Program-made: the position numbers and the translations under genes
Shown: one piece after another, positions 3,001-45,688 of the stretch
Position numbering within the stretch: position 1 is the stretch's first letter
Layout: each line of letters opens with the position of its first letter
Notes under the pieces: model-generated
What the model was told of the DNA's origin: nothing
Database searches by the model: none
What the model saw: the letters and a program-made list of their open reading frames with translations, nothing else
DNA from: an uncultured Collinsella sp.
GTDB lineage: Bacteria; Actinomycetota; Coriobacteriia; Coriobacteriales; Coriobacteriaceae
Assembly: GCA_900542155.1 (NCBI GenBank)
Contig: UQMD01000003.1
Span: 88,099 to 152,098 of the forward strand
Direction of reading: 5' to 3'
DNA length: 64,000 bases

Positions 3001-4782
3001 CTTATCCTGGCCTGCGACCGGTTCGAGATAGGCCACATTGAGTTCAATCGCGCGCGAAGTCGGAATCTTGGTAAAGTCCTCCGCCTTAATCTCTCCGATA
3101 TTCCACGTGCCCGTCATCTGGTCGCCCGGGCGCGCCAGCACCATGTCATAGTAACCGCTGAGCGAAATGCGCAGGGTGACTGCTGTCTTGGAGAGAGCGT
3201 CCGCTGTAAAGCTGCCGCCATCGCCAACCGCCAGCGGCGTGGACTGCCCCGCCTGCACGAGTGTAGCCGTCGCGCTCTGGGGAAGTTTGCCCGTCACCTG
3301 GGCCGCCTCGCCCATCCACTCAAACGTGTAGGCAGGCTTCGAGGAATCGACGGAGTCCTTGCGATCGGCCACGGCATCGGCAAGCTTTTTGACCATCGAG
3401 GGGTTGCCAGCCGAATCGGTCGCATAGGCATAGATGGCCTGGCCTTCACTAAAGGGAATCGCATACGTTACGCCATCGATTGTCACGCGCTCATTATAGT
3501 CGCCCGAATAGCCCGCCTCACCAAACTGAAGATCGGGGTTCATCACGCGCAGGGCAACGGCATTATGGTTCGTCTCGTTTCCGTATCTCGTGTTCTCAAA
3601 AGCTCCCCACTCTATCATTTCCACGCTTTTGGGTAGCACAATCTCTTTGCCGGCAATCGCAGGATCAAGAGAGGCGAACGCGAGCGCCCCGATAGATTTG
3701 ACACCATCGCCAATCGTCACCGACGACACAAAGGAGCACCCGTCAAAGGCATGTTGCTCAATCCGCTCCACCGTGCCCGGCACATTGATCTGCGTAAAGG
3801 TGAGCACTGTTGTGTCCGAGACATAGAACTGTGGCACGCCGCAATAGGCGAATGCAAGATAGGCGATAGTTTTGACCGAAGGCGGCAGCGTTGCCACCAC
3901 ATTGTCGTCAAGTTGTTCACATTCCTTAAAGGCCTGCTCGGGAATCGTGGTAAAGGCCGCGTTGTTGGGCCAGGTTACCGTTTGGAGCGTCTTGCTTTTG
4001 TAGAATGCATAGCTCTTGAGCTCCTCGACCGAATCGGGCAGTGCGATCTCTTTGATGCTGCTGCCGCCCAAACCGCCCACAGAGCGGACATGCGAATTAG
4101 GGGCGAAGGTGATCGATGTGAGCGCAGCGCTTCCCATACCCGTAAGGCTTACGACATTTTTGTCGTCGATGGTCGAGGGCACCTCCAACGTGGTAATGCC
4201 CGCGTCGCCATACTCGATAGAAATTTCGTTGGTGAGGCTATCGATCGAGAAGTAGTACTGCGCGGGGGTCTGCTCGCCGGCCACGTAGCCATCGTCGTAT
4301 TCGTCCTTTACGCCTGTGGCGCCCTTCGAGGTTGCCCAGAGTTCAAGTTCCTCGTTCCAGGTTGCCTCGGCACCGGAAGCCTCCTCCTGCTTCTGCTGTT
4401 CGGCGAGCTCCTTACCCTCGACAAGATCGGTGGCGAGCGTACCCGCAGGTGTGCTCTCGGTCTGCCCGGCGCCCGTCAGGCCCGCCGCCGATGCAATCTC
4501 GGAGGCCGGGGGCGTAGGGGTGTCACCGGCATCGAGCACTGTGGGGTCGGCAGCGCCGGCATCGGGCATGGAGTCGGCGGAAGCAGAGTCTGACGTTTGG
4601 GCGTCAGCCGAATCGGCGGAAGCGGCGTCGCCTGCTTGGCCGTTATCCGTCTGCACAAAGGTGCTATCGGTGGTGAGGGCCTCGGCAAACGCGCCCACAG
4701 GCAACGAGCCCGTCACCATGGTGAGGGTCACCGCGGCAATGGTCAGGCGGCGGCAAAGCGCTCGAACAGTAGTCCACCTCAT
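1..4782 (-). CDS. Secreted BspA-type leucine-rich-repeat (LRR_5-like) surface protein, N-terminal >1590 aa; the ORF continues past the window start so its 3' end is missing
   Basis: The ATG at 4782-4780 (minus strand) is preceded by an AGGAAAGGA RBS. Hand translation gives MRWTTVRALCRRLTIAAVTLTMVTGSLPVGAFAE, a Sec signal peptide. This is followed by an acidic Ser/Asp/Ala linker, then units such as GMGSAALTSITFAPNSHVRSVGGLGGSSIKEIALPDSVEELKSYAFYKSKTLQTVTWPNN, which are typical of BspA/LRR_5 repeats. The ORF track lists no minus-strand ORF between 1 and 4782 even though any internal stop would create one. The frame is therefore open to position 1. The overlapping plus-strand ORFs (367-2082, 2524-3636, 3751-4593) have the R/L/V/G/H-rich composition of antisense artefacts. 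Confidence 0.7.
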   Translation of the reverse strand, partial: MRWTTVRALCRRLTIAAVTLTMVTGSLPVGAFAEALTTDSTFVQTDNGQAGDAASADSADAQTSDSASADSMPDAGAADPTVLDAGDTPTPPASEIASAAGLTGAGQTESTPAGTLATDLVEGKELAEQQKQEEASGAEATWNEELELWATSKGATGVKDEYDDGYVAGEQTPAQYYFSIDSLTNEISIEYGDAGITTLEVPSTIDDKNVVSLTGMGSAALTSITFAPNSHVRSVGGLGGSSIKEIALPDSVEELKSYAFYKSKTLQTVTWPNNAAFTTIPEQAFKECEQLDDNVVATLPPSVKTIAYLAFAYCGVPQFYVSDTTVLTFTQINVPGTVERIEQHAFDGCSFVSSVTIGDGVKSIGALAFASLDPAIAGKEIVLPKSVEMIEWGAFENTRYGNETNHNAVALRVMNPDLQFGEAGYSGDYNERVTIDGVTYAIPFSEGQAIYAYATDSAGNPSMVKKLADAVADRKDSVDSSKPAYTFEWMGEAAQVTGKLPQSATATLVQAGQSTPLAVGDGGSFTADALSKTAVTLRISLSGYYDMVLARPGDQMTGTWNIGEIKAEDFTKIPTSRAIELNVAYLEPVAGQDKTERIELDSLDNIDLTVKSGGKTLKPAKGDKENDYRIQGTALVVSQAIADADQDLEITLVPKDSLKLGGATATVKPSAGKVDIDLKPWGTATVTTKGDYQGANRVLVFRTSDGKLVADGVTYLMGYEDDGTTPIMKAETPRLKAGSYTIVAFNKTSYDIQATSYSTFSRLGLTVGKHIARKQVKIEDGKQLDVTLDVPTFDVETYRAERGLTAGSVIADSSAVVGVETELRIHYELKDSQAAKIEIPLAKDAVEDVSAGAREAGASSDAMWAGTTWEGDNLVLDMKKSAGADVFVRFKPKAAGIYAISPLITLGEVTLPLGSTTLEISGSRIEVDSTDVHSLLGNVAYVYAAPGKSVQLTVGAGASAAKYTGKTNKLGRAKIEYDLPQDTLAAERVTLEARVGSTDVAAAAAEVTARNYVRYVPGASVWNFDVTYRGGTQNLVKDGKDTGKSLWTFHHLPQKKNAYWTFDITLEVGNEEAADTLDLYVDCVDGKTVTIPLTQKSREGTRVRYVAEYVDEGYLKLLDEFNKANDSTYVNCGNFEQIFMPQTYRISNAQLMTMLSFDANASAKKHSAAAEERQQEFSNAVQQWHEYMMDNSFNDVDQAFNDAIDQMVADAFAEEDKDGKDEGGNARKARRAPAASDGEGDDAGNDEAAQFAAELKVAVGGSSALLTKQGDSYGVNVDKMIFEDAYGTGEDWYQELASAQGASAADAAALKELVDHASRAEFIAQQAEDLVGQSMGIGQLNQYGSWNDATAAALNKCAGIKASEYSGQSTSGFNDLGQALGSSLSYKAADDDTVKGFKVAAPDGEQTAYIESEFIENSNNNKNQALLFNSIAMQCDILDNLYDNWNVVHSLNNSTIRGWLMAWKRNGDVSAHMKLIRTIRSLKSYKIECEMFGQVFKTDAWKAAGQAFPAATQGIGIFTGIYGVNDASKNWENVNVRMQKVKGEREGYELQHTRLLAKPEKTEDDWKCIYALRDAMEKARAFEDLLYRQLCHDS

Positions 4783-4886
4783 GGTCGTTCCTTTCCTGCA
4801 AACCAAAAGTCATCCAGCGTAATCGTTGTCCAAAAACAAAGCGAACGGTAGGTTCATATATACGAACCTACCGTTCTACCTGTGCA

Positions 4887-4923
4887 AACCGCCACAAAGG
4901 GGACAGGCACCTTTGTGGCGGTT
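4887..4923. repeat. Palindromic hairpin element, family copy 1 (AACCGCCACAAAGG-ggacaggca-CCTTTGTGGCGGTT), inverted relative to copies 2 and 3
   Basis: The sequence shows a perfect 14-bp stem and a 9-nt loop. The same element recurs at 7528-7560 and 9135-9175, with a degenerate copy at about 15149-15165. Copy 1 carries G/C where the others carry A/T at stem position 3, which preserves pairing. Confidence 0.85.
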
Positions 4924-4930
4924 CTGGACT

Positions 4931-5092
4931 TGGCCGGCCAGTTTGTCTCGATCTGTAACAGTTAGAGGTCAAATTCCCCGCTTGGTGTTACAGATCGAGA
5001 CATTAGGTTGGCGGCCATTCGGTTCATCTCAATCTGTAACATCTAGAGCCGTTTTGGGCAGTTTGGTGTTACAGATTGAGATTTTGCTGAGG
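4931..5092. repeat. Two tandem about 81-bp repeat units, each containing a 55-bp hairpin with 15-bp perfect arms (TCTC[G/A]ATCTGTAACA ... TGTTACAGAT[C/T]GAGA)
   Basis: Unit 1 hairpin is at 4946-5000 and unit 2 hairpin at 5027-5081. The arms differ at a single position, G vs A, and the partner base changes compensatorily, C vs T. The 25-nt loops differ between units. The array lies in the intergenic region between the LRR gene start and the stop of the LAXTG protein gene. Confidence 0.85.
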
Positions 5093-5118
5093 CCGAGAAC
5101 GAGAGCCGTCACCCAGCT

Positions 5119-7500
5119 CTAATGCTTGCGGCGCTTGGTCGCGGCGAGGCCGGCGGCGGCTACGGTTGCGCCGGCGATGCCTAGGGCGGCGACCGTCATC
5201 GCGGTGGTATCCCCCGTGGTAGCCAGGACAGCATCGCCCTTCTTGGCCTGCGTGGTTTTCTCAACCGTCTTGGTCGTGGCGGTTGTCGTGGCCGGCTTGG
5301 CCGCGGGCTTCACCTCGGGCTTGGTCTCAGGCTTAACCTCAGGCTGCGGCGTCGGCTTGGGATCCGGCGTAGGCTGCGGATCGGGGGTCGGCGTGGCTTC
5401 GGGCGTAAACGTCAAATCGGTGTTGAGCCACAGGGTGTAGATCCAGCCGCTGTCCTCATCGGATACGCTATCCGCGACCTGGTAGCCGCACTCCCGGCCG
5501 TTGATCACCAGCTTGGTGTCGGGCGTAAAGTAGAAGCCGCGCGCGGACTTGAGGTAGATGCCGTAGCGATAGGTCACGCCAGGCTTAAAAGCATCGATGT
5601 GGTTTGTAATGTTCTGATTCCAGAACTTCTGGGAGTTCACTTCGCTGCCGTCGCTACCCGTCCAGAACTCACACTGAGGAAGGGAGTTGGAACCCATCGG
5701 AACACTCGCCGTAAAGACCGGCTTATCGCCCGCCCTGAAGGTGGTCGTGGCACCGTCGATCTCGATAACGTCGATGGCACGCCATTCGTCGATCGGCTGC
5801 TCGCACAGCATATTGTCAGCGTTTGGCGCGAAGACGCCGTTGACGGTCTTGATGTGGTGCGTCCAATGGCCGTTGACGTACATCATGCAGTCATCGGCCA
5901 CGGTATTGTCGTCCTTGAGCCTCAGCTCAACGGAATACATGTAGAACTTGCCCTCTTCAAAGTGCTCGATCTTCCTCGCGCCCGTCGGATACTTGGAAGG
6001 GTCGGAATACCAGAAGGCAACGGGTGTGAGCTCCGCGGGGTCACTGCCGTCCATTTCCTCCCAGCACTCGTAGGCAATCTCGTACTTGTCGGCGTCAGCA
6101 GCGGGAATCGTCGCGGTCGCGCGGGGCGCCTCGCCGGGCGCGTAGTCGGTCTTCACGTCGTTGACGTTCAGGTTATGGAGGGCTTCGTTTTCCGACGAAG
6201 CAGGCATCGTAATTGTTTTAATAGCAGGGACATACAGGAATTCTCCGCTTAGACTCGACTTTACGGTTTCCCCGTTTACGGTAACAACGGTTTCATCGCT
6301 GAAGGAATATCCGTCTTTTGGCTTCAGCATAAGAGAATACACGTACTCTTTCCCGCTTTTAAATTTTGTAATAGTCGGTAGGGAACCATGTGAGCCGTTA
6401 TCGGAATACCAGGCAGCAACGGGTTCGTTGTTTTCAAATTCCTGCCAGCATTCATAAGCGATTTCGTATTTATCTGCATCGTAGTTAAGGACACCTGCCG
6501 TCGCCTGCGGACCAGTATCCAGCTGCCAATTGAAGTTCGTATTCTGAACATTGGCAAAGGAGATGGATTCCGATTCTGATTCCGCTGCCGGGATAACAAG
6601 GCACGCCCTCTCGTAGACATGAGTGCGGGTGTAGTAGTCATCCCGGATCTCGTTAATAGTGGGTTTCCCGGTCGCCTCGGTGTCTCCTTTAAAGGCGTCG
6701 TCCGGATCACCGATGATGATATTCCCGGGCTCTGTACCCGTATACGTAAGCTTGGATCCATCATAGGTGGTCGTCATCTTGGACTTATTCTCCTTGTACT
6801 CCGTAAAGTACTTCTGCTCCTCCTTCTGTCTCTGAATCTTGCTGATATCCAGGGTAAGCGTTGTTTTATTGCTCGCACTGTCATACGCCGCATGGACGAT
6901 CAAGTCCCCCAGGCCGATAAAAGTCAAAGCGCTACCATCGAGAGCAGACTGGTCTCCATCTACAAGGGCAATCCCCTTCACATACTCAATCGTTTCTTCT
7001 TTCTTGATGTCGGTGTAATTGTTCCGCACCGTAATATTGACCCTAACGCCGCTGCCGCCAACAACATCGGTCACACCGCAGGGCATGATGGCGTCATTCG
7101 CCGGCGTGGCGGCGTTGTCGCTGGGAGTATTTTGTTCAGCGGGTGCCGCATCGTTGGATTCATCGGTGGCGCCAGTCGGGGCCGTCTGCTGAGGCTCAGC
7201 GGTGGCTTGCGCCGCCGGAGCAGCATCGGTTGCAGGCGCGGTCGAAGCAGCTGGTGCGGTCGTTGCAGCCGTATCCTCCGCAACCGTCGGCGTCACCGGA
7301 GCCGCGGCAACCTCATCCGTCCCAGCGGCGGAATCGGCGCATTCCGTCGCCAGCGCCACGCTCGGCAGCAGAAGCTGGCCAACCATAAGCGCACACGCGC
7401 CGGCGCAAGCTATTTTGGCACCCACACAACGCCAGGTACCGTGAACCAGCGAGCAGGTGGACTCACGTTGAGTTTGCTTGTCAAAGTGACTTGCGTTCAT
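5119..7500 (-). CDS. Cell-wall-anchored surface protein with an LAXTG sorting signal, Thr/Pro-rich stalk and two internal about 150-aa repeats
   Basis: The C-terminus is ...AVLATTGDTTAMTVAALGIAGATVAAAGLAATKRRKH, which is an LAxTG motif followed by a hydrophobic segment and a basic tail. This matches a sortase substrate of the actinobacterial LAXTG kind. A TPEATPTPDPQPTPDPKPTPQPEVKPETKPEVKP stalk precedes it. The repeat DADKYEIAYECW(Q/E)E...WYSD occurs twice. The N-terminus MNASHFDKQ...IACAGACALMVGQLLLPSVALA has a hydrophobic signal region. The ATG at 7500 is preceded by an AAGGAGG RBS. The track ORF start at 7584 merely reads through the upstream hairpin. Confidence 0.85.
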   Translation of the reverse strand: MNASHFDKQTQRESTCSLVHGTWRCVGAKIACAGACALMVGQLLLPSVALATECADSAAGTDEVAAAPVTPTVAEDTAATTAPAASTAPATDAAPAAQATAEPQQTAPTGATDESNDAAPAEQNTPSDNAATPANDAIMPCGVTDVVGGSGVRVNITVRNNYTDIKKEETIEYVKGIALVDGDQSALDGSALTFIGLGDLIVHAAYDSASNKTTLTLDISKIQRQKEEQKYFTEYKENKSKMTTTYDGSKLTYTGTEPGNIIIGDPDDAFKGDTEATGKPTINEIRDDYYTRTHVYERACLVIPAAESESESISFANVQNTNFNWQLDTGPQATAGVLNYDADKYEIAYECWQEFENNEPVAAWYSDNGSHGSLPTITKFKSGKEYVYSLMLKPKDGYSFSDETVVTVNGETVKSSLSGEFLYVPAIKTITMPASSENEALHNLNVNDVKTDYAPGEAPRATATIPAADADKYEIAYECWEEMDGSDPAELTPVAFWYSDPSKYPTGARKIEHFEEGKFYMYSVELRLKDDNTVADDCMMYVNGHWTHHIKTVNGVFAPNADNMLCEQPIDEWRAIDVIEIDGATTTFRAGDKPVFTASVPMGSNSLPQCEFWTGSDGSEVNSQKFWNQNITNHIDAFKPGVTYRYGIYLKSARGFYFTPDTKLVINGRECGYQVADSVSDEDSGWIYTLWLNTDLTFTPEATPTPDPQPTPDPKPTPQPEVKPETKPEVKPAAKPATTTATTKTVEKTTQAKKGDAVLATTGDTTAMTVAALGIAGATVAAAGLAATKRRKH

Positions 7501-7527
7501 AACGGCCTCCTTGGTCGTAGGGACATA

Positions 7528-7560
7528 CCACCACAAAGGTGTCTGTCCCCTTTGTGGTGG
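7528..7560. repeat. Palindromic hairpin element, family copy 2 (CCACCACAAAGG-tgtctgtcc-CCTTTGTGGTGG)
   Basis: This is a perfect 12-bp stem with a 9-nt loop. It lies 28 bp upstream of the LAXTG gene ATG, in the intergenic region shared divergently with the LuxR gene. Confidence 0.85.
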
Positions 7561-7597
7561 TCCTGTACCACCAAGATGTGCCAAGTGACTCCGTATG

Positions 7598-7623
7598 CCT
7601 AGGTTCGTAGATGTGAACCTAGG
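7598..7623. promoter_or_regulatory. Lux-box-like palindrome CCTAGGTTC-gtagatgt-GAACCTAGG, a candidate operator upstream of the LuxR-family gene
   Basis: The arms are a perfect 9-bp inverted repeat separated by an 8-bp spacer. The element sits about 105 bp upstream of the TTG start of the membrane LuxR gene. LuxR-type HTH dimers characteristically bind 18-26 bp dyad sites. Confidence 0.35.
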
Positions 7624-7726
7624 CCTCTACCTGCGGTTTAATTCAATATGATTTCGCCATCGCCACACGCGTCCCGGGAACGCTACAATCGAGGACACGA
7701 TCATTCGTCCACCCAAAGGACCGTCC

Positions 7727-9130
7727 TTGAACCTGAGCAGGCCTAAAATCAACGCGCTTCTGGCACTCGCGCTCTTTACCTTTGTCTTTCTTGCCGCCGA
7801 GTTTCGATTCGACATTAATGTCGGGCTGCTCGCCGGTGCCGAGCGTGTTGTGATTGCGCAGGGCTTTATTCTAGGTGCGAGCGTGCTCGGCTTTATCGGA
7901 TATGCGCCGCTGCTCGGGCTCGCACAGCGCAAAGGCCGGCCTCGGGCAGTTGTCAGCACCGCCGTCCCCATCGCCATCTTGGGGTTGACTCAGATTCAGT
8001 TCCCTACGACCCCGCTTGCCCTCGAAATTCTGGGCTGCGTGGCATTCCTTGGACTCGGCCTGCTGGGTGCCGCCGCTCACCACGCCTTCGCGACGGCATT
8101 CCAAGACGATTCCAAGCTTGCCACTGGCGCGGGAGCGGCATATGCCGCGGGCATCCTGATGCAGTTCGCCGTCAACCTGCTCAATTGCGGCGGTATCGCA
8201 GAGCTCATCGTCCTTGGCACAGCGACGATCGCCATCTCCGCCCTCAGCGCCACTACCCAAGCGGCAAACGAGGGCCCCAGGCCCGCCATCAATCCCTTTG
8301 TCGAACCTTCGCACGCCCTCGCCAAGCAGGCATGTTGGAGCATCGCGCTCGTCATGATTCTTGCCTGCTTGTTCTCGACCCTCGACAATGTGGTCACGCT
8401 CTCCAACGCCCACGGCACCATTGCCGTGCAGACCTGGCCGCGCCTCTTTTTGGCTGCAAGCGGCCTTGCCGCCGGCATTATCTTTGATCTTGCCGAGCGC
8501 CGATACATGGGACTTGTCATGCTCGGCATCGCCGTGCTCTCGACCATTTCCATCCTGGCCGTGGAGGCCGGCGCCGATCTCAACCTGGGCCTTGTCGTCT
8601 TTTACCTGAGCTCGGGCTTTTTTGTCACGTTCTTTACCGCCACGTTTACACAGCTGGCACCGCGCATGCATGCACCCGCCCTCTGGGCCGGCATGGGGCG
8701 CGCAGCCAATAACGTGTGCGCGTTCATCACGTCGGGCGTCTCGCTTGCGCTTGTGACCTCGGGCAATGTTGCTCTCATCATGATCGGTGCGCTCGTTTTG
8801 CTCGTCGCGGCTTGCGTGGCATTCGTTGCCGCCGGCCTGTTCCGTCTACCCCAGACCGAGCAGGAGCGCGAACATCAACAGCTTGCCGAGGAAGCACTCG
8901 CCGCGCCCACCGTCGAGGAGCAGCGCCAGGCCTTCATCGCCAACCACGCTCTCACCCCGCGCGAAGTCGACGTGCTCATGGCCGTAACCCAAGACGAGCG
9001 CCCGCTCAAACAGGTCGCCGAGGAGCTTGGAATCTCGATGCGCATGGTGCAGCGCCACCTGAGCTCTATCTACCAAAAGACCGACACGCAGACGCGCGCC
9101 GGTCTCACCAAGGCCTTTCCCTCGGCCTAA
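7727..9130 (+). CDS. Membrane-anchored LuxR-family transcriptional regulator (multi-pass transmembrane N-domain plus C-terminal LuxR/GerE HTH)
   Basis: About 10 hydrophobic segments are followed by the C-terminal ...LTPREVDVLMAVTQDERPLKQVAEELGISMRMVQRHLSSIYQKTDTQTRAGL. This is the LuxR-type HTH signature. The start is TTG at 7727, which the track reports as 'M', and it is preceded by AAAGGA. There is no internal ATG for the first 140 codons. Confidence 0.8.
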   Translation: MNLSRPKINALLALALFTFVFLAAEFRFDINVGLLAGAERVVIAQGFILGASVLGFIGYAPLLGLAQRKGRPRAVVSTAVPIAILGLTQIQFPTTPLALEILGCVAFLGLGLLGAAAHHAFATAFQDDSKLATGAGAAYAAGILMQFAVNLLNCGGIAELIVLGTATIAISALSATTQAANEGPRPAINPFVEPSHALAKQACWSIALVMILACLFSTLDNVVTLSNAHGTIAVQTWPRLFLAASGLAAGIIFDLAERRYMGLVMLGIAVLSTISILAVEAGADLNLGLVVFYLSSGFFVTFFTATFTQLAPRMHAPALWAGMGRAANNVCAFITSGVSLALVTSGNVALIMIGALVLLVAACVAFVAAGLFRLPQTEQEREHQQLAEEALAAPTVEEQRQAFIANHALTPREVDVLMAVTQDERPLKQVAEELGISMRMVQRHLSSIYQKTDTQTRAGLTKAFPSA

Positions 9131-9134
9131 AACA

Positions 9135-9175
9135 AAAACCACCACAAAGGTGTCTGTCCCCTTTGTGGTGGTTTT
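9135..9175. terminator. Bidirectional rho-independent terminator, the family copy 3 hairpin flanked by A- and T-tracts
   Basis: The sequence is aaaaACCACCACAAAGG-tgtctgtcc-CCTTTGTGGTGGtttt. It lies between the stop of the LuxR gene (9130) and the stop of the convergent cytidylate-kinase-like gene (9182). Confidence 0.7.
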
Positions 9176-9181
9176 GGTCGG

Positions 9182-9805
9182 TTAGCCTTCGAGCTGCGCC
9201 AGCTTGTAGCGGTAGGCCGCCGCGATGACATCTTTGCAGCCCTCGCGTCCCAACTTGGCGCGGTTGACGACGATGTCCTTGCCGCTCGTCATCTTCCACT
9301 TGCCGGCGCTATAGCGCTTATAGAACGCCTCGCGCGCCTTCTGCTGCTGTTTGACCAGCTTGGCGCCCTTCTTTTTGTTGAGGCCACGCTTCTTGCGCAC
9401 AATCTCGACGCGGTCCTCAAAGGGAGCGGTCACCAACACGGCAATGTGGTTGGGGTTGTTGCGAAGCAGGTAATCGGACAGGCGGCCTTCGATAATGCAG
9501 CTCTCGGTCTCACCCAAGTCCAAAATCACCTGGCTCATCTTTTGGAATAGCTTGTCCGAGTACGAACGGGCATCGTAGCGGTCGGGCAGAAACGCCATGT
9601 TCTCCACGGCCAGGCGCTCGTCGTAGGCGGCCATCTTGTCGAGCGACTCGCCCGCACGCAGCGACGCACGTACCAGCAGTTCGTTGTCGTACAGCGGAAT
9701 CCCCAGCTCGTTGGCAAGCATTCGGCCAATCTCGTGGCCCTCGGCACCAAAATCGCGCGCGATGGTAATGACCACAGGATTCTTCTTGTTCTCCAGATCG
9801 CTCAT
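9182..9805 (-). CDS. Cytidylate kinase-like family protein (P-loop AAA_28/Cytidylate_kin2-type)
   Basis: The N-terminus ...VVITIARDFGAEGHEIGRMLANELGIPLYD matches the conserved start of the cytidylate-kinase-like family (xxITIxRExGSGG...). Confidence 0.7.
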   Translation of the reverse strand: MSDLENKKNPVVITIARDFGAEGHEIGRMLANELGIPLYDNELLVRASLRAGESLDKMAAYDERLAVENMAFLPDRYDARSYSDKLFQKMSQVILDLGETESCIIEGRLSDYLLRNNPNHIAVLVTAPFEDRVEIVRKKRGLNKKKGAKLVKQQQKAREAFYKRYSAGKWKMTSGKDIVVNRAKLGREGCKDVIAAAYRYKLAQLEG

Positions 9806-15043: not shown

Positions 15044-15230
15044 GTTTGGCCTTTCACATCACGAATCGAACAAACGCCATTGTGTCACAACGCAGCCCCC
15101 GAGACACACCTGGTGCATGGGAGACGGTTTAATCTGCACCATTTTGGTGCAAAGGGGACAGGTCTGGCAGTTGGCAGTTAGGGACGTTCCTTTTCTGCCG
15201 ACAGTTAGGGACAGCCCCCAAGTGCCGGCC

Positions 15231-26015: not shown

Positions 26016-27398
26016 ATGTTTGTTGGACGTCGGGAAGAGCTTGAATCCCTGGAAACCGCCTATCAAAAGGGTTCCTTTCAGTTTGCTGTAGTCTATGGAA
26101 GGCGTCGCGTAGGTAAAACTAGCCTGCTTCACGCCTTTACACAGGACAAACCCCATGTGATCTTCTTTACTGGGCAGCAAACCGTTGCAAGCGAAAATCT
26201 CGCGCTGCTCAGCCGCGAGATACTTGGCGATAGCGCCGCAGGAGCAGCGTTCCCCTCTATCCAGGTTGCACTCGAATCCGTCTTCGAACACGCCAAGACA
26301 GAGCGAATCGTTCTGATTATTGACGAGTATCCCTACCTCGCCGAGAGCGATCCAGGCATCTCTTCGTGCCTGCAAACGCTTATCGATCGACATAAAGACA
26401 CGAGCAAGCTGTTCCTCGTACTCTGCGGGTCGTCCATGAGCTTTATGGAACACCAGGTACTAGGACACCAAAGCCCTCTTTATGGACGCCGCACCATGCA
26501 GCTGCGCATTGACCCCTTCACCATCTTCGACGCGGCGCTCATGCTTCCCGATGCACCCATCGAAAGGGTCATCGAGCTGTATTCCGTTGTTGGCGGGATG
26601 CCGCTCTATCTATCACAGCTCGATGGCGCGCGTTCCACCCAATGGAACCTTGAGCATGCGCTGCTGCGTCAAGATGCGTTTTTGTATGCCGAACCCCAGA
26701 ACTATCTGCTGCAAGAGGTCCGCAGCCCGGCTATCTACAATGCCGTCATAACCGCCATTGCCAACGGCTATGTACGCTCCAAAGAGATTGCCGATGTTAC
26801 CCACCTCGCAACACCACAGGTCGCGCGACTGCTCGACGCATTGATCGAGCTGCGAATCGTTGAGCGCGTCACGCCTGTTGTAAAGGCAACAAAACGTCAA
26901 GTAATCTATCGGATCTGCGACAACTTGTTTAGGTTTTGGTATCGTTTTGTTCCACAGTACGCGGGAACAATTGAGGAGGGGCTCGGAGCCGCTGTGGCCG
27001 CGCGTATCGCCAAGCATGATTTGTCCACCTTTGTGGGTCCTGCATTTGAAGAAGTGTGCCGCCAGTGGTTGATGCGGCAGGTTGTTGAGAGCGAGCTGGA
27101 TGTGCTGCCCAAGGCAATCGGCTCTTGGTGGGGCACGAACCCGAACACGCGCCGGCAAGAAAAGATTGACGTTGTGCTTGAGGACGCCGATGGGGAGCTC
27201 ATCGTTGGCGAGTGCAAATGGAGAAACGAGCCCGCTGACGTCGATGTGCTTGAGACGCTCATGCGTCGCGGAACATTGTTGGGCAGGCCGATCCAACGAT
27301 ATTACCTGTTTAGCAAGGGTGGATTTACGGAGGCATGTCGAGAGAAAGCCGCCCAAGTGAACGACACAAGGCTTATTGACCTTGAGCAGCTGCTCTAA
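26016..27398 (+). CDS. ATP-binding protein of the 'archaeal ATPase' (Arch_ATPase, PF01637) plus DUF234 family
   Basis: The N-terminus MFVGRREELESLETAYQKGSFQFAVVYGRRRVGKTSLL carries the Walker A motif GRRRVGKT. A Walker B-like motif LIIDEYPYL is also present. The C-terminal region matches the DUF234 pattern. Confidence 0.85.
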   Translation: MFVGRREELESLETAYQKGSFQFAVVYGRRRVGKTSLLHAFTQDKPHVIFFTGQQTVASENLALLSREILGDSAAGAAFPSIQVALESVFEHAKTERIVLIIDEYPYLAESDPGISSCLQTLIDRHKDTSKLFLVLCGSSMSFMEHQVLGHQSPLYGRRTMQLRIDPFTIFDAALMLPDAPIERVIELYSVVGGMPLYLSQLDGARSTQWNLEHALLRQDAFLYAEPQNYLLQEVRSPAIYNAVITAIANGYVRSKEIADVTHLATPQVARLLDALIELRIVERVTPVVKATKRQVIYRICDNLFRFWYRFVPQYAGTIEEGLGAAVAARIAKHDLSTFVGPAFEEVCRQWLMRQVVESELDVLPKAIGSWWGTNPNTRRQEKIDVVLEDADGELIVGECKWRNEPADVDVLETLMRRGTLLGRPIQRYYLFSKGGFTEACREKAAQVNDTRLIDLEQLL

Positions 27399-32519: not shown

Positions 32520-32640
32520 CCGAGCCTTCCTCTCCCATTACCGTGGCGCCGCGCGGGCGCCAAACGGTGCTCATAGTTGCGTTCATTTCGGCGCGCGCCA
32601 TAACAGCGCGCGCCGTCATATCAACAAAACAGCAGGTAAA

Positions 32641-32677
32641 ACCTACCAAAATAAACCTGTCCCTACATGGCAGGTTT
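32641..32677 (-). terminator. Hairpin plus U-tract immediately after the purF stop, a possible partial terminator or attenuator between purF and purM
   Basis: The minus-strand read is AAACCUGCC-AUGUAGGGA-CAGGUUU followed by AUUUUGGUAGGUUUUACC. A second 9-bp GC hairpin CGGCGCGCG-ccataacag-CGCGCGCCG lies at 32588-32614 in the same 157-nt spacer. Confidence 0.4.
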
Positions 32678-34347
32678 TAGGCCTCGCCGTGTTCCTCTTC
32701 CCAGCTGCGGTCGTCGTATTTCTCGACCACGGCGTCGTCGTCAAAGTGCAGCGGCTTGTCCAGGTTGCGGGGCTTAAAGCCCTCCATGAACTTGTCGCGG
32801 CCAAAGCTCTCGGGAATCGCCACGGGGTAGCGTCCGGTAAAGCACGCATCGCAGTAACCGCCCTTGGGCATGACCTTAAGCAGGCCCTCGACCGAAAGGA
32901 AGGCCAGCGAATCGGCGCCGATATACTCGCAGATCTCATCGACCGTCTTGTTGGCGCTGATAAGCTGCGACTGCACGTCGGTATCGATACCGTAGAAGCA
33001 CGGCCAGATGACCTCGGGCGAGTTGATGCGGATGTGAATCTCCTTGGCGCCGGCGTTGCGCAGCATCTTGACGAGCTGCACCATAGTGGTGCCGCGGACG
33101 ATGGAGTCGTCAATGACGACCAGGCGCTTGCCCTCGATGTTGTCGCGCAGCGGGTTGAGCTTCATACGCACGCCCATGGCACGCAGCTCCTGCGTAGGCT
33201 CGATGAACGTACGGCCCACATAGCGATTCTTGATGAGGCCCTCGCCAAAGGGAATGCCGCTCTCGTGCGAATAGCCCTCCGCGGGCGGCAGGCCGGAGTC
33301 GGGCACGCCGATGACCAGGTCGGCCTCGACGGGCTCCTCATGTGCCAGCTGACGACCCATGTCATAACGGCAGGCGTAGACGCTCTTGCCGTTCATGATG
33401 GAGTCGGGGCGGGCAAAGTAGACCTGCTCAAAGATGCAGTTAGCAGGCTCTTCGGCTGCAGGCACGCCCTGCTCGGACACAAGGCCCTCGGCGCTGATGC
33501 GCAAGATCTCGCCGGGACGGACATCGCGCACGTACTCGGCGCCCACAATGTCGAGTGCGCAGGTCTCGGAGGCAACGACCCAGCCGCCGGCGCGGGTAAC
33601 ATGGGTGGTGGCGTCGACCGTCACGGCGCCGTCCTGCGACGGCAGCTGCGAAACGGATGCGGCATCGGCCTGGTCCAGACCCTCGTCCACCAGCTTGCCC
33701 AACACCAGCGGGCGGATGCCGTGCGGATCGCGGAATGCGTAGAGCGCCTGCTCGTTGATGAGCGTCATGGCATAACCGCCACGCACGAGCTCCATGGTCT
33801 TGCGAATGCCCTCGCGCAGGTGGCCCGTACGCTGGGTAAAGTAGCCGATGAGCTTGGTCGCGACCTCGGAATCCGAATTGGAGAGGAACGGCACGCCCAG
33901 CTCAATCAGCTGGCGACGCAGCTCGTCGGTGTTGACGAGGGTACCGTTGTGCGCGAGCGCGATAATGACGCTATTGATGGTAGAGAGGTGCGGCTGAGAG
34001 GCTTCCCAGCTCTTGGCGCCGGCGGTGCCGTAGCGCACATGACCCACGGCCAGCTGACCGGAGAGCGTCGACAGGTCGGCGTTGGAGAACACGCGGTCGA
34101 GCAGGCCCAGATCCTTGCGGACCATAACCGTACCGCCGTCACCCACGGCGATTCCCGCCGATTCCTGGCCGCGATGCTGCAGCGCGCGCAGACCAAAGTA
34201 CGTCAGTCGAGCCACATCGCGATCGGGTGCCCACACACCAAAAACACCGCATTCCTCATGCAGCTGGTCGGAGTCCGGATCATACGTCGACATGGTGTTC
34301 ACCTGTCCCGTGGCACGCTCGGCCGCGCGGATGGTTTCTTGAGACAT
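32677..34347 (-). CDS. purF: Amidophosphoribosyltransferase
   Basis: The protein contains ...LHEECGVFGVW..., the propeptide plus the catalytic Cys. PRTase motifs are present (VVIDDSIVRGTT) and the C-terminus has the CxxC cluster ligands typical of the PurF type. An internal ATG at 34293 (MSTYDPD...) would give a more typical 13-aa propeptide, so the start is uncertain. Confidence 0.9.
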   Translation of the reverse strand: MSQETIRAAERATGQVNTMSTYDPDSDQLHEECGVFGVWAPDRDVARLTYFGLRALQHRGQESAGIAVGDGGTVMVRKDLGLLDRVFSNADLSTLSGQLAVGHVRYGTAGAKSWEASQPHLSTINSVIIALAHNGTLVNTDELRRQLIELGVPFLSNSDSEVATKLIGYFTQRTGHLREGIRKTMELVRGGYAMTLINEQALYAFRDPHGIRPLVLGKLVDEGLDQADAASVSQLPSQDGAVTVDATTHVTRAGGWVVASETCALDIVGAEYVRDVRPGEILRISAEGLVSEQGVPAAEEPANCIFEQVYFARPDSIMNGKSVYACRYDMGRQLAHEEPVEADLVIGVPDSGLPPAEGYSHESGIPFGEGLIKNRYVGRTFIEPTQELRAMGVRMKLNPLRDNIEGKRLVVIDDSIVRGTTMVQLVKMLRNAGAKEIHIRINSPEVIWPCFYGIDTDVQSQLISANKTVDEICEYIGADSLAFLSVEGLLKVMPKGGYCDACFTGRYPVAIPESFGRDKFMEGFKPRNLDKPLHFDDDAVVEKYDDRSWEEEHGEA

Positions 34348-35932: not shown

Positions 35933-36006
35933 TGGCTGGGGCAGAGGGATTCGAACCCCCGTAGCTGGTACCAAAAACCAGGGTCCTGCCGCTGGACGAT
36001 GCCCCA
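35933..36006 (-). tRNA. tRNA-Gln (anticodon UUG)
   Basis: The minus-sense read is UGGGGCAUCGUCCAGCGGCAGGACCCUGGUUUUUGGUACCAGCUACGGGGGUUCGAAUCCCUCUGCCCCAGCCA. There is a 7-bp acceptor stem with U1-A72, as in bacterial tRNA-Gln. The anticodon stem is CUGGU/ACCAG and the loop UUUUGGU carries the anticodon UUG. The T-arm is GGGGG-UUCGAAU-CCCUC, and the discriminator G plus an encoded CCA follow. Confidence 0.85.
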
Positions 36007-45596: not shown

Positions 45597-45688
45597 GGGT
45601 GCCCCGCGGCGGTCTGGTGTTTTCATCTCCACTCCGGTTGCTTCGCAAAGTCGTTCAGATGAAAACACCAGACCGCCGCGGGGCACCC
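45597..45688. repeat. Perfect 32-bp inverted repeat with a 28-nt loop (GGGTGCCCCGCGGCGGTCTGGTGTTTTCATCT ... AGATGAAAACACCAGACCGCCGCGGGGCACCC) in the marR-purE spacer
   Basis: The two arms are exact reverse complements (45597-45628 and 45657-45688). The element lies about 95 nt upstream of the purE ATG and about 125 nt after the marR stop. Confidence 0.9.

What the first reader, a model, noticed from the sequence alone, without database searches (positions are those of the whole stretch)
4887..9175. Palindromic repeat family CCACAAAGG-N9-CCTTTGTGG: three intact copies with compensatory stem substitutions plus a degenerate fourth
The copies lie at 4887-4923, 7528-7560 and 9135-9175. They share 12-14 bp perfect stems and a TG(T/C)CTGTCC loop. 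Copy 1 is inverted relative to the other two. Its stem carries G/C where the others carry A/T, a covariation that preserves pairing, so the hairpin structure itself is under selection. Copy 3 is embedded in A/T tracts and acts as a bidirectional terminator. Copy 2 sits 28 bp upstream of the LAXTG-protein start codon. Copy 1 sits about 100 bp upstream of the giant LRR gene. A degenerate relative (GCACCATTTTGGTGCAAAGGGGACAGG) occurs at about 15134-15165. The element is therefore either a REP/BIME-like dispersed repeat or a shared operator or RNA motif. It could link the two surface-protein genes to the LuxR regulator they flank.
Basis: seen in the sequence. Interest (0 to 1): 0.55.

Follow-up and report, generated by a model that had tools for sequence, protein, structure and literature searches.

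The report
Collinsella-wide conserved gene-end hairpin repeat
The three palindromes belong to a hairpin repeat of near-constant sequence, apparently not yet described, that is scattered through Collinsella genomes mostly just after stop codons; it most likely acts as a transcription terminator and is not a control site for the neighbouring LuxR regulator.

Summary
There are three exact matches to CCACAAAGG-N9-CCTTTGTGG, against 0.01 expected by chance, and a covariance model finds no fourth member in the 64 kb. The element ("E", about 41-47 nt, AAAACCACCACAAAGG-GGACAGGCA-CCTTTGTGGTGGTTTT) is not specific to this locus. A scan of reference genomes stopped at its 120-locus limit, and almost every hit was Collinsella. 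These loci cover about 60 junction types, beside housekeeping genes of 144 Pfam families, with no enrichment for LuxR or surface proteins. E usually lies 10-25 nt after a stop codon. The strand entered by the gene has a richer U-tract and a preferred loop orientation. This is how an intrinsic terminator behaves, and the closest analogue is the Mycobacterium TRIT motif. In the window only copy 3 is a canonical bidirectional terminator. Copies 1 and 2 lack U-tracts and bracket the LATTG surface-protein gene; the trio is conserved in all 14 further strain contigs examined. Sequence conservation, not covariation, dominates: the loop is 93% identical between orthologous copies, the flanks 76-86%. 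The loop motif GGG-N-CAGG recurs on unrelated stems in sister families. No RAYT transposase, recombinase or Rfam family was found. I classify E as a new member of a known kind, of moderate interest.

The parts
4882..4928 (+). E copy 1. The stem is 4887-4923 and the loop reads GGACAGGCA on the + strand. It lies 200 nt downstream of the LATTG gene stop and about 104 nt upstream of the giant LRR gene start. Its U-tract is weak on both strands.
   Evidence: Exact pattern match. Model R1 gives 64.1 bits, E=1e-17. It folds at -29.4 kcal/mol. The tails have 3 T in 7 nt.
7521..7567 (-). E copy 2. The stem is 7527-7561 and the loop reads GGACAGACA on the - strand. It lies in the divergent region between the LATTG gene (ATG at 7500, - strand) and LuxR (start 7727, + strand). 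It has no U-tract.
   Evidence: (60.1 bits). It is conserved with the same orientation in every further strain contig that covers this position.
9132..9178 (-). E copy 3. The stem is 9135-9175 and includes A/T-tract pairs. It lies between the convergent LuxR gene (stop at 9130) and the cytidylate-kinase-like gene (stop at 9182) and has the form of a bidirectional intrinsic terminator.
   Evidence: (68.2 bits). The tails have 5 and 6 T in 7 nt on the two strands. Orthologous copies sit beside the same kinase-like gene in L102, L114, L089, L108, L107 and L044.
4944..5082 (.). Array of two family-a hairpins (4944-5002 and 5026-5082). The arms TGTCTCGATCTGTAACA / TGTTACAGATCGAGACA are separated by exactly 25 variable nt. 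The array lies between the LATTG gene stop and copy 1 and forms a composite with E.
   Evidence: (I13, I19).
4843..4876 (-). Hairpin GAACGGTAGGTTC-N8-GAACCTACCGTTC, followed on the - strand by GCTTTGTTTTT. It is a canonical terminator-like site just after copy 1 and upstream of the giant LRR gene. It is an inverted copy of the hairpin at 7597-7624.
   Evidence: Terminator scan, inverted repeat I5, pattern count of 2 against 0.04 expected.
7597..7624 (.). Palindrome GCCTAGGTTC-N8-GAACCTAGGC in the LuxR/LATTG divergent region, 35 nt from copy 2. It is specific to this module.
   Evidence: Among 256 loci it occurs only in the orthologues L096 and L102. It is present in one strain group of the module and degraded in the other.
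15105..15170 (.). Decayed doublet of the sister family E-b (GGTGCAAAG stem, GGGNCAGG loop).
5119..7500 (-). Gene for a 793-aa LATTG-anchored surface protein, bracketed by copies 1 and 2.
   Evidence: Translation. The C-terminus reads LATTG followed by a hydrophobic segment and RRKH.
7727..9130 (+). Gene for a membrane-associated LuxR-type regulator (GerE HTH at residues 408-460), bracketed by copies 2 and 3.

Best explanation
The three palindromes are copies of a dispersed hairpin repeat that is specific to the genus Collinsella. I call it E. Its consensus is AAAACCA-CCACAAAGG-GGACAGGCA-CCTTTGTGG-TGGTTTT, and there are probably tens to about a hundred copies per genome. E sits mainly just after stop codons and most likely serves as an intrinsic, often bidirectional, transcription terminator or 3'-end hairpin. 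It resembles the TRIT motif of Mycobacterium in that both sequence and structure are conserved. What is shown: the wide dispersal, the position at gene ends, the orientation bias and U-tract bias, the conservation of the loop, and the lack of any link to LuxR or surface-protein genes. What is inferred: that termination actually happens. No RNA data were available. In this window copy 3 is the working bidirectional terminator between the LuxR gene and the kinase-like gene. Copies 1 and 2 lack U-tracts. They mark the two ends of the surface-protein gene within a conserved module (surface-protein gene, LuxR gene and three E copies). Their role there is unknown; they may act as an RNA-end or leader hairpin, or as an insulator. 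The near-identity of copies is probably maintained by selection on the loop motif GGG-N-CAGG together with gene conversion between copies.
For: Dispersal. The reference-genome scan reached its 120-locus limit, and almost all hits were Collinsella or Coriobacteriaceae. I found 175 copies, 93 flank clusters and 60 junction types.

Position. There are 84 copies in tandem, 44 in convergent and 18 in divergent gene contexts, and 3 inside genes. In tandem pairs the median distance is 22 nt after the upstream stop and 100 nt before the next start.

Orientation and U-tract. On strands where a gene runs into E, the loop reads GGACAGGCA in 103 cases and the reverse in 42. Those strands have 4.03 T in the 7-nt tail against 3.29 on other strands (p=4e-6).

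Structure. 88% of stem cells are paired, and 9 pairs show double changes against 5.0 in shuffles. Stabilities are -24 to -29 kcal/mol.

Neighbours. They are functionally diverse.

Loop constraint. The loop is 93% identical between orthologous copies and the flanks 76-86%. The same motif, with the same variable position, appears in a sister family that was fetched by its stem alone and on other stems.

Gene conversion. Copies 2 and 3 of the window share a loop variant found in only 2 of 138 other copies, and their orthologues lack it.

Copy number. E occurs about once per 20-37 kb in 972 kb that was sampled without reference to E.

Precedent. TRIT has 147 conserved palindromic terminators restricted to Mycobacterium (PMC3152330). 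Actinobacterial 3'-end stem-loops are reported to be long and often poor in U (PMC13613805).
Against: There is no transcript 3'-end data, so termination is inferred from anatomy alone. About a third of copies lack a good U-tract, and these include window copies 1 and 2. Copy 2 lies in a divergent promoter region, where it cannot terminate either neighbouring gene, yet it is conserved in every strain contig that covers it. A plain terminator needs no conserved loop sequence, so termination alone does not explain the invariance. My gene calls were crude (ORF length plus GC3 bias), so the context counts are approximate.
Confidence: 0.7

Rival explanations
1. E is read by a dedicated trans-acting factor through its loop. 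The factor could be a protein that binds RNA hairpins (a termination, stability or processing factor) or one that binds single-stranded DNA hairpins. The hairpin families that share the loop motif GGG-N-CAGG would then form one functional system. This reading can hold together with the terminator reading.
For: GGGACAGG lies in a hairpin loop in 157 of 190 occurrences, against about 2 of 40 for control 8-mers, and it does so on at least five unrelated stems. The sister family, fetched by stem alone, has loops GGG(T/A/C/G)CAGGTTA, and 91 of 120 are within one mismatch of the motif. The variable position is the same one that varies in E. The loop evolves more slowly than the flanks. The authors who described TRIT made the same suggestion for that motif.
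Against: No candidate protein was identified. E and the sister family share about 21 central nt, so common descent combined with gene conversion could explain part of the resemblance. The motif is not enriched outside hairpins.
Confidence: 0.25
2. E is a REP/REPIN-like non-autonomous mobile element that is copied to new sites by a transposase acting on hairpin DNA. Its terminator-like position would be a by-product of where insertions are tolerated.
For: E occupies many unrelated sites with sharp element boundaries. At an orthologous site it is replaced by a different long palindrome, and elsewhere it is decaying. The sister family forms head-to-head doublets like REPINs. E forms mosaic clusters with other repeats, as in BIMEs.
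Against: E. coli RayT has no homologue in 2.0 Mb of sampled Collinsella DNA; the best tblastn E-value is 0.7. E has no conserved GTAG/CGTC-type tag at its 5' side, only an A-tract. No clean pair was found in which one genome has the empty site and another has E alone inserted. Orthologous copies are stable across many species (304 pairs with the same orientation).
Confidence: 0.12
3. E is a site for site-specific recombination. Its layout, 13-bp inverted arms around a 9-bp asymmetric spacer, resembles lox and FRT sites. Gene cassettes would be inserted, excised or inverted at E.
For: In L085 a HicA/HicB cassette lies between two directly oriented E copies, while L116 has a single E between the same flanks, with the junction at the element's edge. 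In L114, L089 and L044 a single E occupies the position of the LATTG-LuxR module, and each outer E of the module keeps one of the original flanks. In 183 pairs that share only one flank, homology ends 2-9 nt past the core. A need for identical spacers between partner sites would explain why the loop is invariant.
Against: Gene adjacency is lost no more often across E junctions than across E-free junctions: 28% in both. The outer E copies of the module are in inverted orientation, so simple excision cannot produce the single-E state. No recombinase gene recurs beside E. The loop flipped only once among 309 orthologous pairs. Deletion between repeats, or genes simply travelling with their own terminators, gives the same pattern. 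A 9-bp spacer is longer than those of known tyrosine-recombinase sites.
Confidence: 0.07
4. E is an operator or RNA motif that places the two surface-protein genes under the control of the flanking LuxR regulator.
For: The three copies in the window surround the LuxR gene and lie upstream of both surface-protein genes, and this trio is conserved across strains.
Against: E is found across the genus at about 60 junction types, beside housekeeping genes of 144 Pfam families. Most copies lie downstream of genes. A perfect 13-bp palindrome with A/T tracts does not look like an operator. A better local candidate exists: the TAGGTTC-N8-GAACCTA palindrome, which is found only in this module.
Confidence: 0.03
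5. The stem of E is made of an inverted pair of DNA-uptake sequences, as in the terminators of Neisseria and Haemophilus.
For: In those genera, uptake sequences in inverted pairs form terminators of conserved sequence.
Against: The arm occurs only about 100 times per Mb, and mostly within hairpins. The window has 6 paired arms and 1 single arm. In an uptake-sequence pair the loop would not be conserved, but here it is.
Confidence: 0.02

Closest known systems
TRIT (Tuberculosis Rho-independent terminator) motif of Mycobacterium (Gardner et al. 2011, PMC3152330)
   Same: Both are palindromic hairpins conserved in sequence as well as structure, with on the order of 100 dispersed copies. Both are tied to gene ends, mostly bidirectional, restricted to one actinobacterial genus, and conserved enough to suggest an unknown binding factor.
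   Different: The sequences are unrelated. TRIT overlaps the end of the coding sequence (around -8 from the stop), whereas E lies about 10-25 nt after the stop. E carries A/T tracts, and it has sister families that share its loop motif.
REP / BIME / REPIN elements of Enterobacteria and Pseudomonas, with their RAYT transposases
   Same: Both are extragenic palindromes of 35-45 nt at the 3' ends of genes. Both form mosaic clusters with other motifs and occur as subfamilies and doublets. Concerted evolution and gene conversion have been proposed for REP too. REPs have roles in mRNA 3'-end stability and in termination.
   Different: No RAYT homologue was found in the sampled DNA. E has no GTAG/CGTC tag. 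Its stem is perfect, not bulged. Its copy number is lower. About two thirds of copies have a U-tract, which operational definitions of REP exclude.
Canonical bidirectional intrinsic terminators
   Same: Copy 3 has the standard anatomy: an A-tract, a stable stem-loop and a T-tract, placed between convergent stop codons.
   Different: Ordinary terminators are unique sequences. Most other gene-end hairpins in this window are unique. E is one near-invariant sequence used at many genes.
lox/FRT-type tyrosine-recombinase core sites and integron attC sites
   Same: E has 13-bp inverted arms around an asymmetric centre, and some gene cassettes, including a toxin-antitoxin pair, are bounded by directly oriented copies.
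   Different: The spacer is 9 bp. No cognate recombinase was found. Rearrangement is not elevated at E. E is scattered beside housekeeping genes and is not arranged in a cassette array.

Membership tests
Intrinsic (Rho-independent) terminator | A stable G+C-containing RNA hairpin | tested here: met
   -24 to -29 kcal/mol with z-scores of -3 to -6 for all three copies on both strands. 88% of stem cells are paired family-wide.
Intrinsic (Rho-independent) terminator | A U-tract immediately 3' of the stem | tested here: inconclusive
   Copy 3 has 5 and 6 T in 7 nt. Copies 1 and 2 have 3 of 7 on each strand. Family-wide, 64-68% of strands entered by a gene have at least 4 T, against 47-62% of other strands.
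Intrinsic (Rho-independent) terminator | Position shortly downstream of a stop codon, on the transcribed strand | tested here: met
   The median is 22 nt after the upstream stop in tandem contexts, and convergent pairs are common. Copy 3 is 11 and 13 nt from two stops. Copy 2 is an exception, in a divergent region.
Intrinsic (Rho-independent) terminator | Transcript 3' ends map to the U-tract | not testable with these tools
   No RNA-seq or Term-seq data were available.
TRIT-like conserved terminator family | The same sequence and structure repeated at many gene ends in one genus | tested here: met
   The estimate of about 60-120 copies per genome is rough.
TRIT-like conserved terminator family | Sequence homology to the Mycobacterium TRIT motif | not tested
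   No TRIT model was available. No Rfam family matched E. The resemblance is in how E works, not in membership.
REP/RAYT system | Extragenic palindromes in many dispersed copies, often in mosaic clusters | tested here: met
REP/RAYT system | A conserved 5' tetranucleotide tag (GTAG or CGTC) next to the palindrome | tested here: not met
   The flank consensus is only an A-tract on one side and a T-tract on the other.
REP/RAYT system | An associated RAYT (Y1 transposase) gene, typically flanked by the repeats | tested here: inconclusive
   tblastn with E. coli RayT against 2.0 Mb of sampled Collinsella DNA gave a best E-value of 0.7. No whole genome was searched, and only one query was used.
LuxR-box operator / regulon motif | Found in the promoters of a defined gene set linked to the regulator | tested here: not met
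   The neighbours are diverse, most copies lie downstream of genes, and neither LuxR nor surface proteins are enriched.
Tyrosine-recombinase core site (lox/FRT-like) | Inverted binding arms around a 6-8-bp asymmetric crossover region | tested here: inconclusive
   E has 13-bp arms but a 9-nt centre.
Tyrosine-recombinase core site (lox/FRT-like) | Recombination products: empty and filled sites, inversions, more rearrangement at the site, and a cognate recombinase | tested here: not met
   There are two cases of indels bounded by E. However, adjacency loss is 28% with E and 28% without it, there was one loop flip in 309 orthologous pairs, and no recombinase appears among the neighbours.
DNA-uptake-sequence terminators | The arm sequence is highly over-represented as single copies throughout the genome | tested here: not met
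   About 100 arms per Mb, mostly paired, and one single arm in 64 kb.

The most novel reading that the evidence does not exclude
Collinsella may carry a previously unrecognised system of hairpin elements: E, its sister family E-b, family C and others. What defines them would be the loop motif GGG-N-CAGG presented on interchangeable stems, read by a dedicated trans-acting protein. That protein could be an RNA-hairpin factor for termination or mRNA stability, or an enzyme that acts on single-stranded DNA hairpins and spreads and homogenises the elements. The strictly alternating family-a arrays (arms about 19 nt, gaps of 25 nt) that accompany E would be a second component with no known counterpart. 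Under this reading the elements also mark the edges of gene modules, such as the surface-protein/LuxR pair and a HicAB cassette, and so help shape the very high gene-content diversity of the genus.
Probability: 0.25. Interest if true: 0.7.

Novelty: new member of a known kind. Interest (0 to 1): 0.42.

Why it matters
Collinsella is an abundant and very diverse human-gut genus, and almost nothing is known about how its genes are punctuated. A terminator-type hairpin of near-constant sequence, present in tens to about a hundred copies per genome, has several uses. It marks operon boundaries in annotation. It is a ready-made genetic part. It gives a handle for finding a factor that reads the conserved loop, which is the same open question raised by the Mycobacterium TRIT motif. 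It is also a practical warning. Identical 40-nt repeats at gene ends can break assemblies and can mimic horizontal-transfer breakpoints in split-read analyses; Collinsella ranks high in one such survey, in which palindromes were a learned feature of the called sites (PMC7771070). That link is my inference and was not tested. For this locus, the result removes the attractive but unsupported idea of a LuxR regulon marked by these palindromes.

Tried and rejected
1. Known RNA families. Rfam at gathering threshold on the window and on 130 kb of E-rich loci, and at relaxed E-value on 4700-5200, gave only a tRNA and sub-threshold eukaryotic miRNA hairpin noise.

2. The fourth copy. It is rejected as a family member and reassigned to a sister family.

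3. Regulon link. Rejected on neighbour-gene content.

4. Fast phase-variable loop inversion. Rejected: loop orientation is the same in 304 of 309 orthologous pairs.

5. Rearrangement hotspot. Rejected by the control within the same loci, 28% against 28%.

6. Phage origin. There are only 7 hits in 2.9 million viral contigs.

7. RAYT partner. None was found in 2.0 Mb. This is a weak negative.

8. DNA-uptake sequence. Rejected on arm counts.

9. Sequestration of the LATTG ribosome-binding site by a helix extending copy 2. The window's fold shows it, but it is not conserved in the second strain group and has no covariation support.

10. Prior description. No paper in the library prints these sequences or describes such a repeat in Collinsella.

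11. Exact count per genome.
Full report
**The observation.** The pattern CCACAAAGG-N9-CCTTTGTGG matches exactly at 4892-4918, 7531-7557 and 9142-9168, and nowhere else in the window even when three mismatches are allowed. Shuffles give 0.01 matches. The perfect stems run 4887-4923, 7527-7561 and 9135-9175. Copies 2 and 3 are identical over 35 nt. Copy 1 is inverted as judged by its loop (GGACAGGCA on the + strand, against TGTCTGTCC) and has one G-C pair where the others have A-T. All three fold at -24 to -29 kcal/mol on either strand. A covariance model built from 64 family members finds only these three copies in the 64 kb, at 60-68 bits.

**Gene context.** A giant protein with a BspA-type LRR domain starts at 4782 on the minus strand and runs off the left edge of the window. 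A 793-aa LATTG-anchored protein is encoded at 7500-5119 on the minus strand. A LuxR-type regulator with a membrane domain is encoded at 7727-9130 on the plus strand. A cytidylate-kinase-like gene lies at 9805-9182 on the minus strand. Copy 3 therefore lies between two convergent stop codons, 11 and 13 nt away. Copy 2 lies in the divergent region, 26 nt upstream of the LATTG start codon. Copy 1 lies between the stop of the LATTG gene and the start of the giant gene.

**Distribution.** Almost all were labelled Collinsella or Coriobacteriaceae. In these loci plus the window I found 175 copies with at most four mismatches to the 27-nt core. The loop, which the search pattern did not constrain, is TGCCTGTCC or its reverse complement in 101 of 138 exact-stem copies. 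Conservation extends to AAAACCA on one side and TGGTTTT on the other, and then stops. The flanks fall into 93 clusters and 60 junction types, so this is a truly dispersed repeat. In 972 kb of gut-metagenome contigs that were selected through a different element, E occurs once per 20-37 kb. That suggests very roughly 60-120 copies per 2.4-Mb genome. E is rare on viral contigs, with 7 hits.

**What E does.** With rough gene calls, 84 copies lie between tandem genes, 44 between convergent genes and 18 between divergent genes, and 3 lie inside genes. In tandem pairs the element sits a median of 22 nt after the upstream stop and 100 nt before the next start. On strands where a gene runs into the element, the loop reads GGACAGGCA in 103 cases and the reverse in 42. 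The 7-nt tail on those strands is richer in T (4.03 against 3.29, p=4e-6). This is the anatomy of an intrinsic terminator, often a bidirectional one. The closest precedent is TRIT in Mycobacterium, with 147 conserved palindromic terminators restricted to that genus (PMC3152330). Actinobacterial 3'-end stem-loops are reported to be long and often poor in U (PMC13613805). Termination itself is inferred, because no transcript data were available. In the window only copy 3 has good U-tracts (5 and 6 of 7). Copies 1 and 2 have 3 of 7 on each strand.

**The regulon idea.** The 100 non-redundant neighbours of E match 144 Pfam families. These include PEPCK, ribosomal protein L1, EF-G domains, glutamate dehydrogenase, DegV and various transporters. 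GerE/LuxR and surface-protein domains are not among the families matched by the most neighbours. Regions with four E copies in 3 kb hold Ogt-like, DegV, B3/4-domain and PEPCK genes. E is therefore not a motif of a LuxR or surface-protein regulon.

**Selection on the sequence.** Covariation exists but is modest. Nine stem pairs show double changes, against 5.0 in shuffles (0 of 500 shuffles reach that), and 88% of cells are paired. The main signal is invariance of both stem and loop. At 31 orthologous sites the loop is 93% identical between genomes, while the flanks are 76-86% identical even though they include coding 3' ends. Two processes probably contribute. The first is selection on the loop. 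GGGACAGG lies in a hairpin loop in 157 of 190 occurrences, against about 2 of 40 for control 8-mers, and it does so on at least five unrelated stems. A sister family (E-b, TGGTGCAAAG-N11-CTTTGCACCA), fetched by its stem alone from metagenomes, has loops GGG(T/A/C/G)CAGGTTA. Its variable position is the same one that varies in E. The second process is gene conversion. Copies 2 and 3 of the window share the loop variant TGTCTGTCC, which occurs in 2 of 138 other copies and is absent from their orthologues. The A-U to G-C change of copy 1 also recurs in copy 2 of two other strains.

**This locus compared across strains.** In many strains the layout is: GltD-like gene, E(-), surface-protein gene on the minus strand, E(+), LuxR gene, E(+), kinase-like gene on the minus strand. 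All three E copies keep these orientations, and there are no other E copies in the surrounding 17 kb. Other species (L114, L089, L044) have a single E between the GltD-like and kinase-like genes, with the flanks matching right up to the element. L107 keeps a 30-nt remnant of the LuxR 3' end. A second clean case involves L116 and L085. L116 has one E. L085 has, between the same flanks, E, then a 690-nt HicA/HicB cassette, then a diverged E' whose stem carries a compensated variant. In 183 pairs of copies that share only one flank, homology ends 2-9 nt beyond the core. This could suggest that E is a recombination site. Its 13-9-13 layout also recalls lox and FRT sites. A control within the same loci argues against that reading, however. 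Gene adjacency is lost in 28% of comparisons across junctions with E and in 28% across junctions without it. Loop orientation is stable, the same in 304 of 309 orthologous pairs. No recombinase recurs beside E. The simplest reading is that each gene carries E as its own terminal hairpin, so conserved blocks end at E.

**Other readings I tested.** No Rfam family matches. E. coli RayT has no homologue in 2.0 Mb of sampled DNA, and E has no GTAG-type tag. So E works somewhat like a REP, but membership of the REP/RAYT system is not established. The arm is not over-represented as single copies, which excludes a DNA-uptake sequence. At one orthologous site E is replaced by a different long palindrome between the same A and T tracts. 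Elsewhere it is decaying, or its stem has been recoded while the loop is kept. Hairpins at a given gene end therefore turn over. The fold of the window's LATTG leader suggested that copy 2 caps a helix that hides the ribosome-binding site, but that helix is not conserved in a second strain group.

**Verdict.** E is best described as a conserved hairpin family of terminator type, specific to Collinsella and apparently not yet described. It is a new member of a known kind, with TRIT and REP as its nearest relatives in function. Three things remain unexplained: the loop motif shared across different stems, the conserved U-less copy 2 in a promoter region, and the family-a arrays that accompany E.

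Noticed in passing
window 4944-5002 and 5026-5082; also L006, L013, L038, L057, L074, L096, L106, L107, L117, L120, L265-L269: These are family-a arrays. Arms of about 19 nt (TTTGTCTCGATCTGTAACA) alternate strictly in orientation. The gaps between them are exactly 25 or 26 nt and vary in sequence, with an A/T-rich centre. There are 2-6 arms per array. The arrays lie almost always 10-35 nt from an E copy, on the side where E reads GGACAGGCA. They occur at 10 or more different genomic sites, are present in one strain group of the LuxR module and absent from another, and are not in Rfam. I could not work out what they are.
   Followed up: partly
window 4843-4876 and 7597-7624: The palindrome TAGGTTC-N8-GAACCTA occurs twice, against 0.04 expected. 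One copy is upstream of each surface-protein gene, and the two are inverted copies of each other. Among 256 fetched loci it occurs only in orthologues of this LuxR module (L096, L102), and it also appears in the L265-L269 strain group. It is a better candidate than E for an operator of the adjacent LuxR regulator. The copy at 4843-4876 also has a T-tract and looks like a terminator.
   Followed up: partly
window 32636-32680; 32 copies in 28 of the 121 sources, plus 27 in the metagenome loci: This is the family-C hairpin, AAACCTGCCAAAA-TAAACCTGTCCCT-TTTTGGCAGGTTT. Its loop carries the same CCTGTCCC/GGGACAGG motif as E, on an unrelated stem. It often lies 24 nt from an E copy. In L075, for example, it lies beside each of the two E copies that bracket an MFS transporter gene.
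   Followed up: partly
window 15105-15230: The region holds a decayed doublet of the sister family E-b (GGTGCAAAG stem), followed by repeated GTTAGGGAC motifs (15182-15215). Nearby sequence resembles another small hairpin family seen elsewhere (TGCCGGCACTT-N13-AAGTGCCGGCA, with loop AGGGACGTTCCCA).
   Followed up: partly
window 7531-7557 and 9142-9168: Copies 2 and 3 share the rare loop variant TGTCTGTCC, which their orthologues in other genomes lack. This suggests gene conversion between copies 1.6 kb apart.
   Followed up: partly
window 7562-7585 (minus strand, just upstream of copy 2): CACATCTTGGTGGTA resembles the loop end and 3' arm of E (CACCTTTGTGGTGGTA). It may be a half-copy left by an earlier event. 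It can also pair with the 5' arm of copy 2.
   Followed up: no
L085 2975-3740 compared with L116 1112: A HicA/HicB toxin-antitoxin cassette of about 690 nt lies between two directly oriented E copies in L085. L116 has a single E between the same flanks.
   Followed up: yes
L060 1462-1578 and L042 251-367: At the site where six other genomes have E, these two carry a different long palindrome with a stem of about 33 bp (AAATGATCCCTTGGGGACGGAGGAAAACGGATCAT...), between the same A and T tracts. The hairpin at a fixed gene end has been swapped.
   Followed up: partly
L076, L115, L100 and others (15 copies in 7 loci): A further long-loop hairpin family, CACAACATTCGA-N23-27-TCGAATGTTGTG, also lies next to E copies.
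   Followed up: no
window 45597-45688: A very long perfect hairpin: a 32-bp stem (GGGTGCCCCGCGGCGGTCTGGTGTTTTCATCT) with a 28-nt loop.
   Followed up: no
window 27028-27036: A single unpaired copy of the E arm (CCACAAAGG, minus strand), away from any E hairpin.
   Followed up: no
window 35936-36006: A tRNA gene on the minus strand (Rfam RF00005, 55.8 bits). This is the only Rfam family hit in the window.
   Followed up: no
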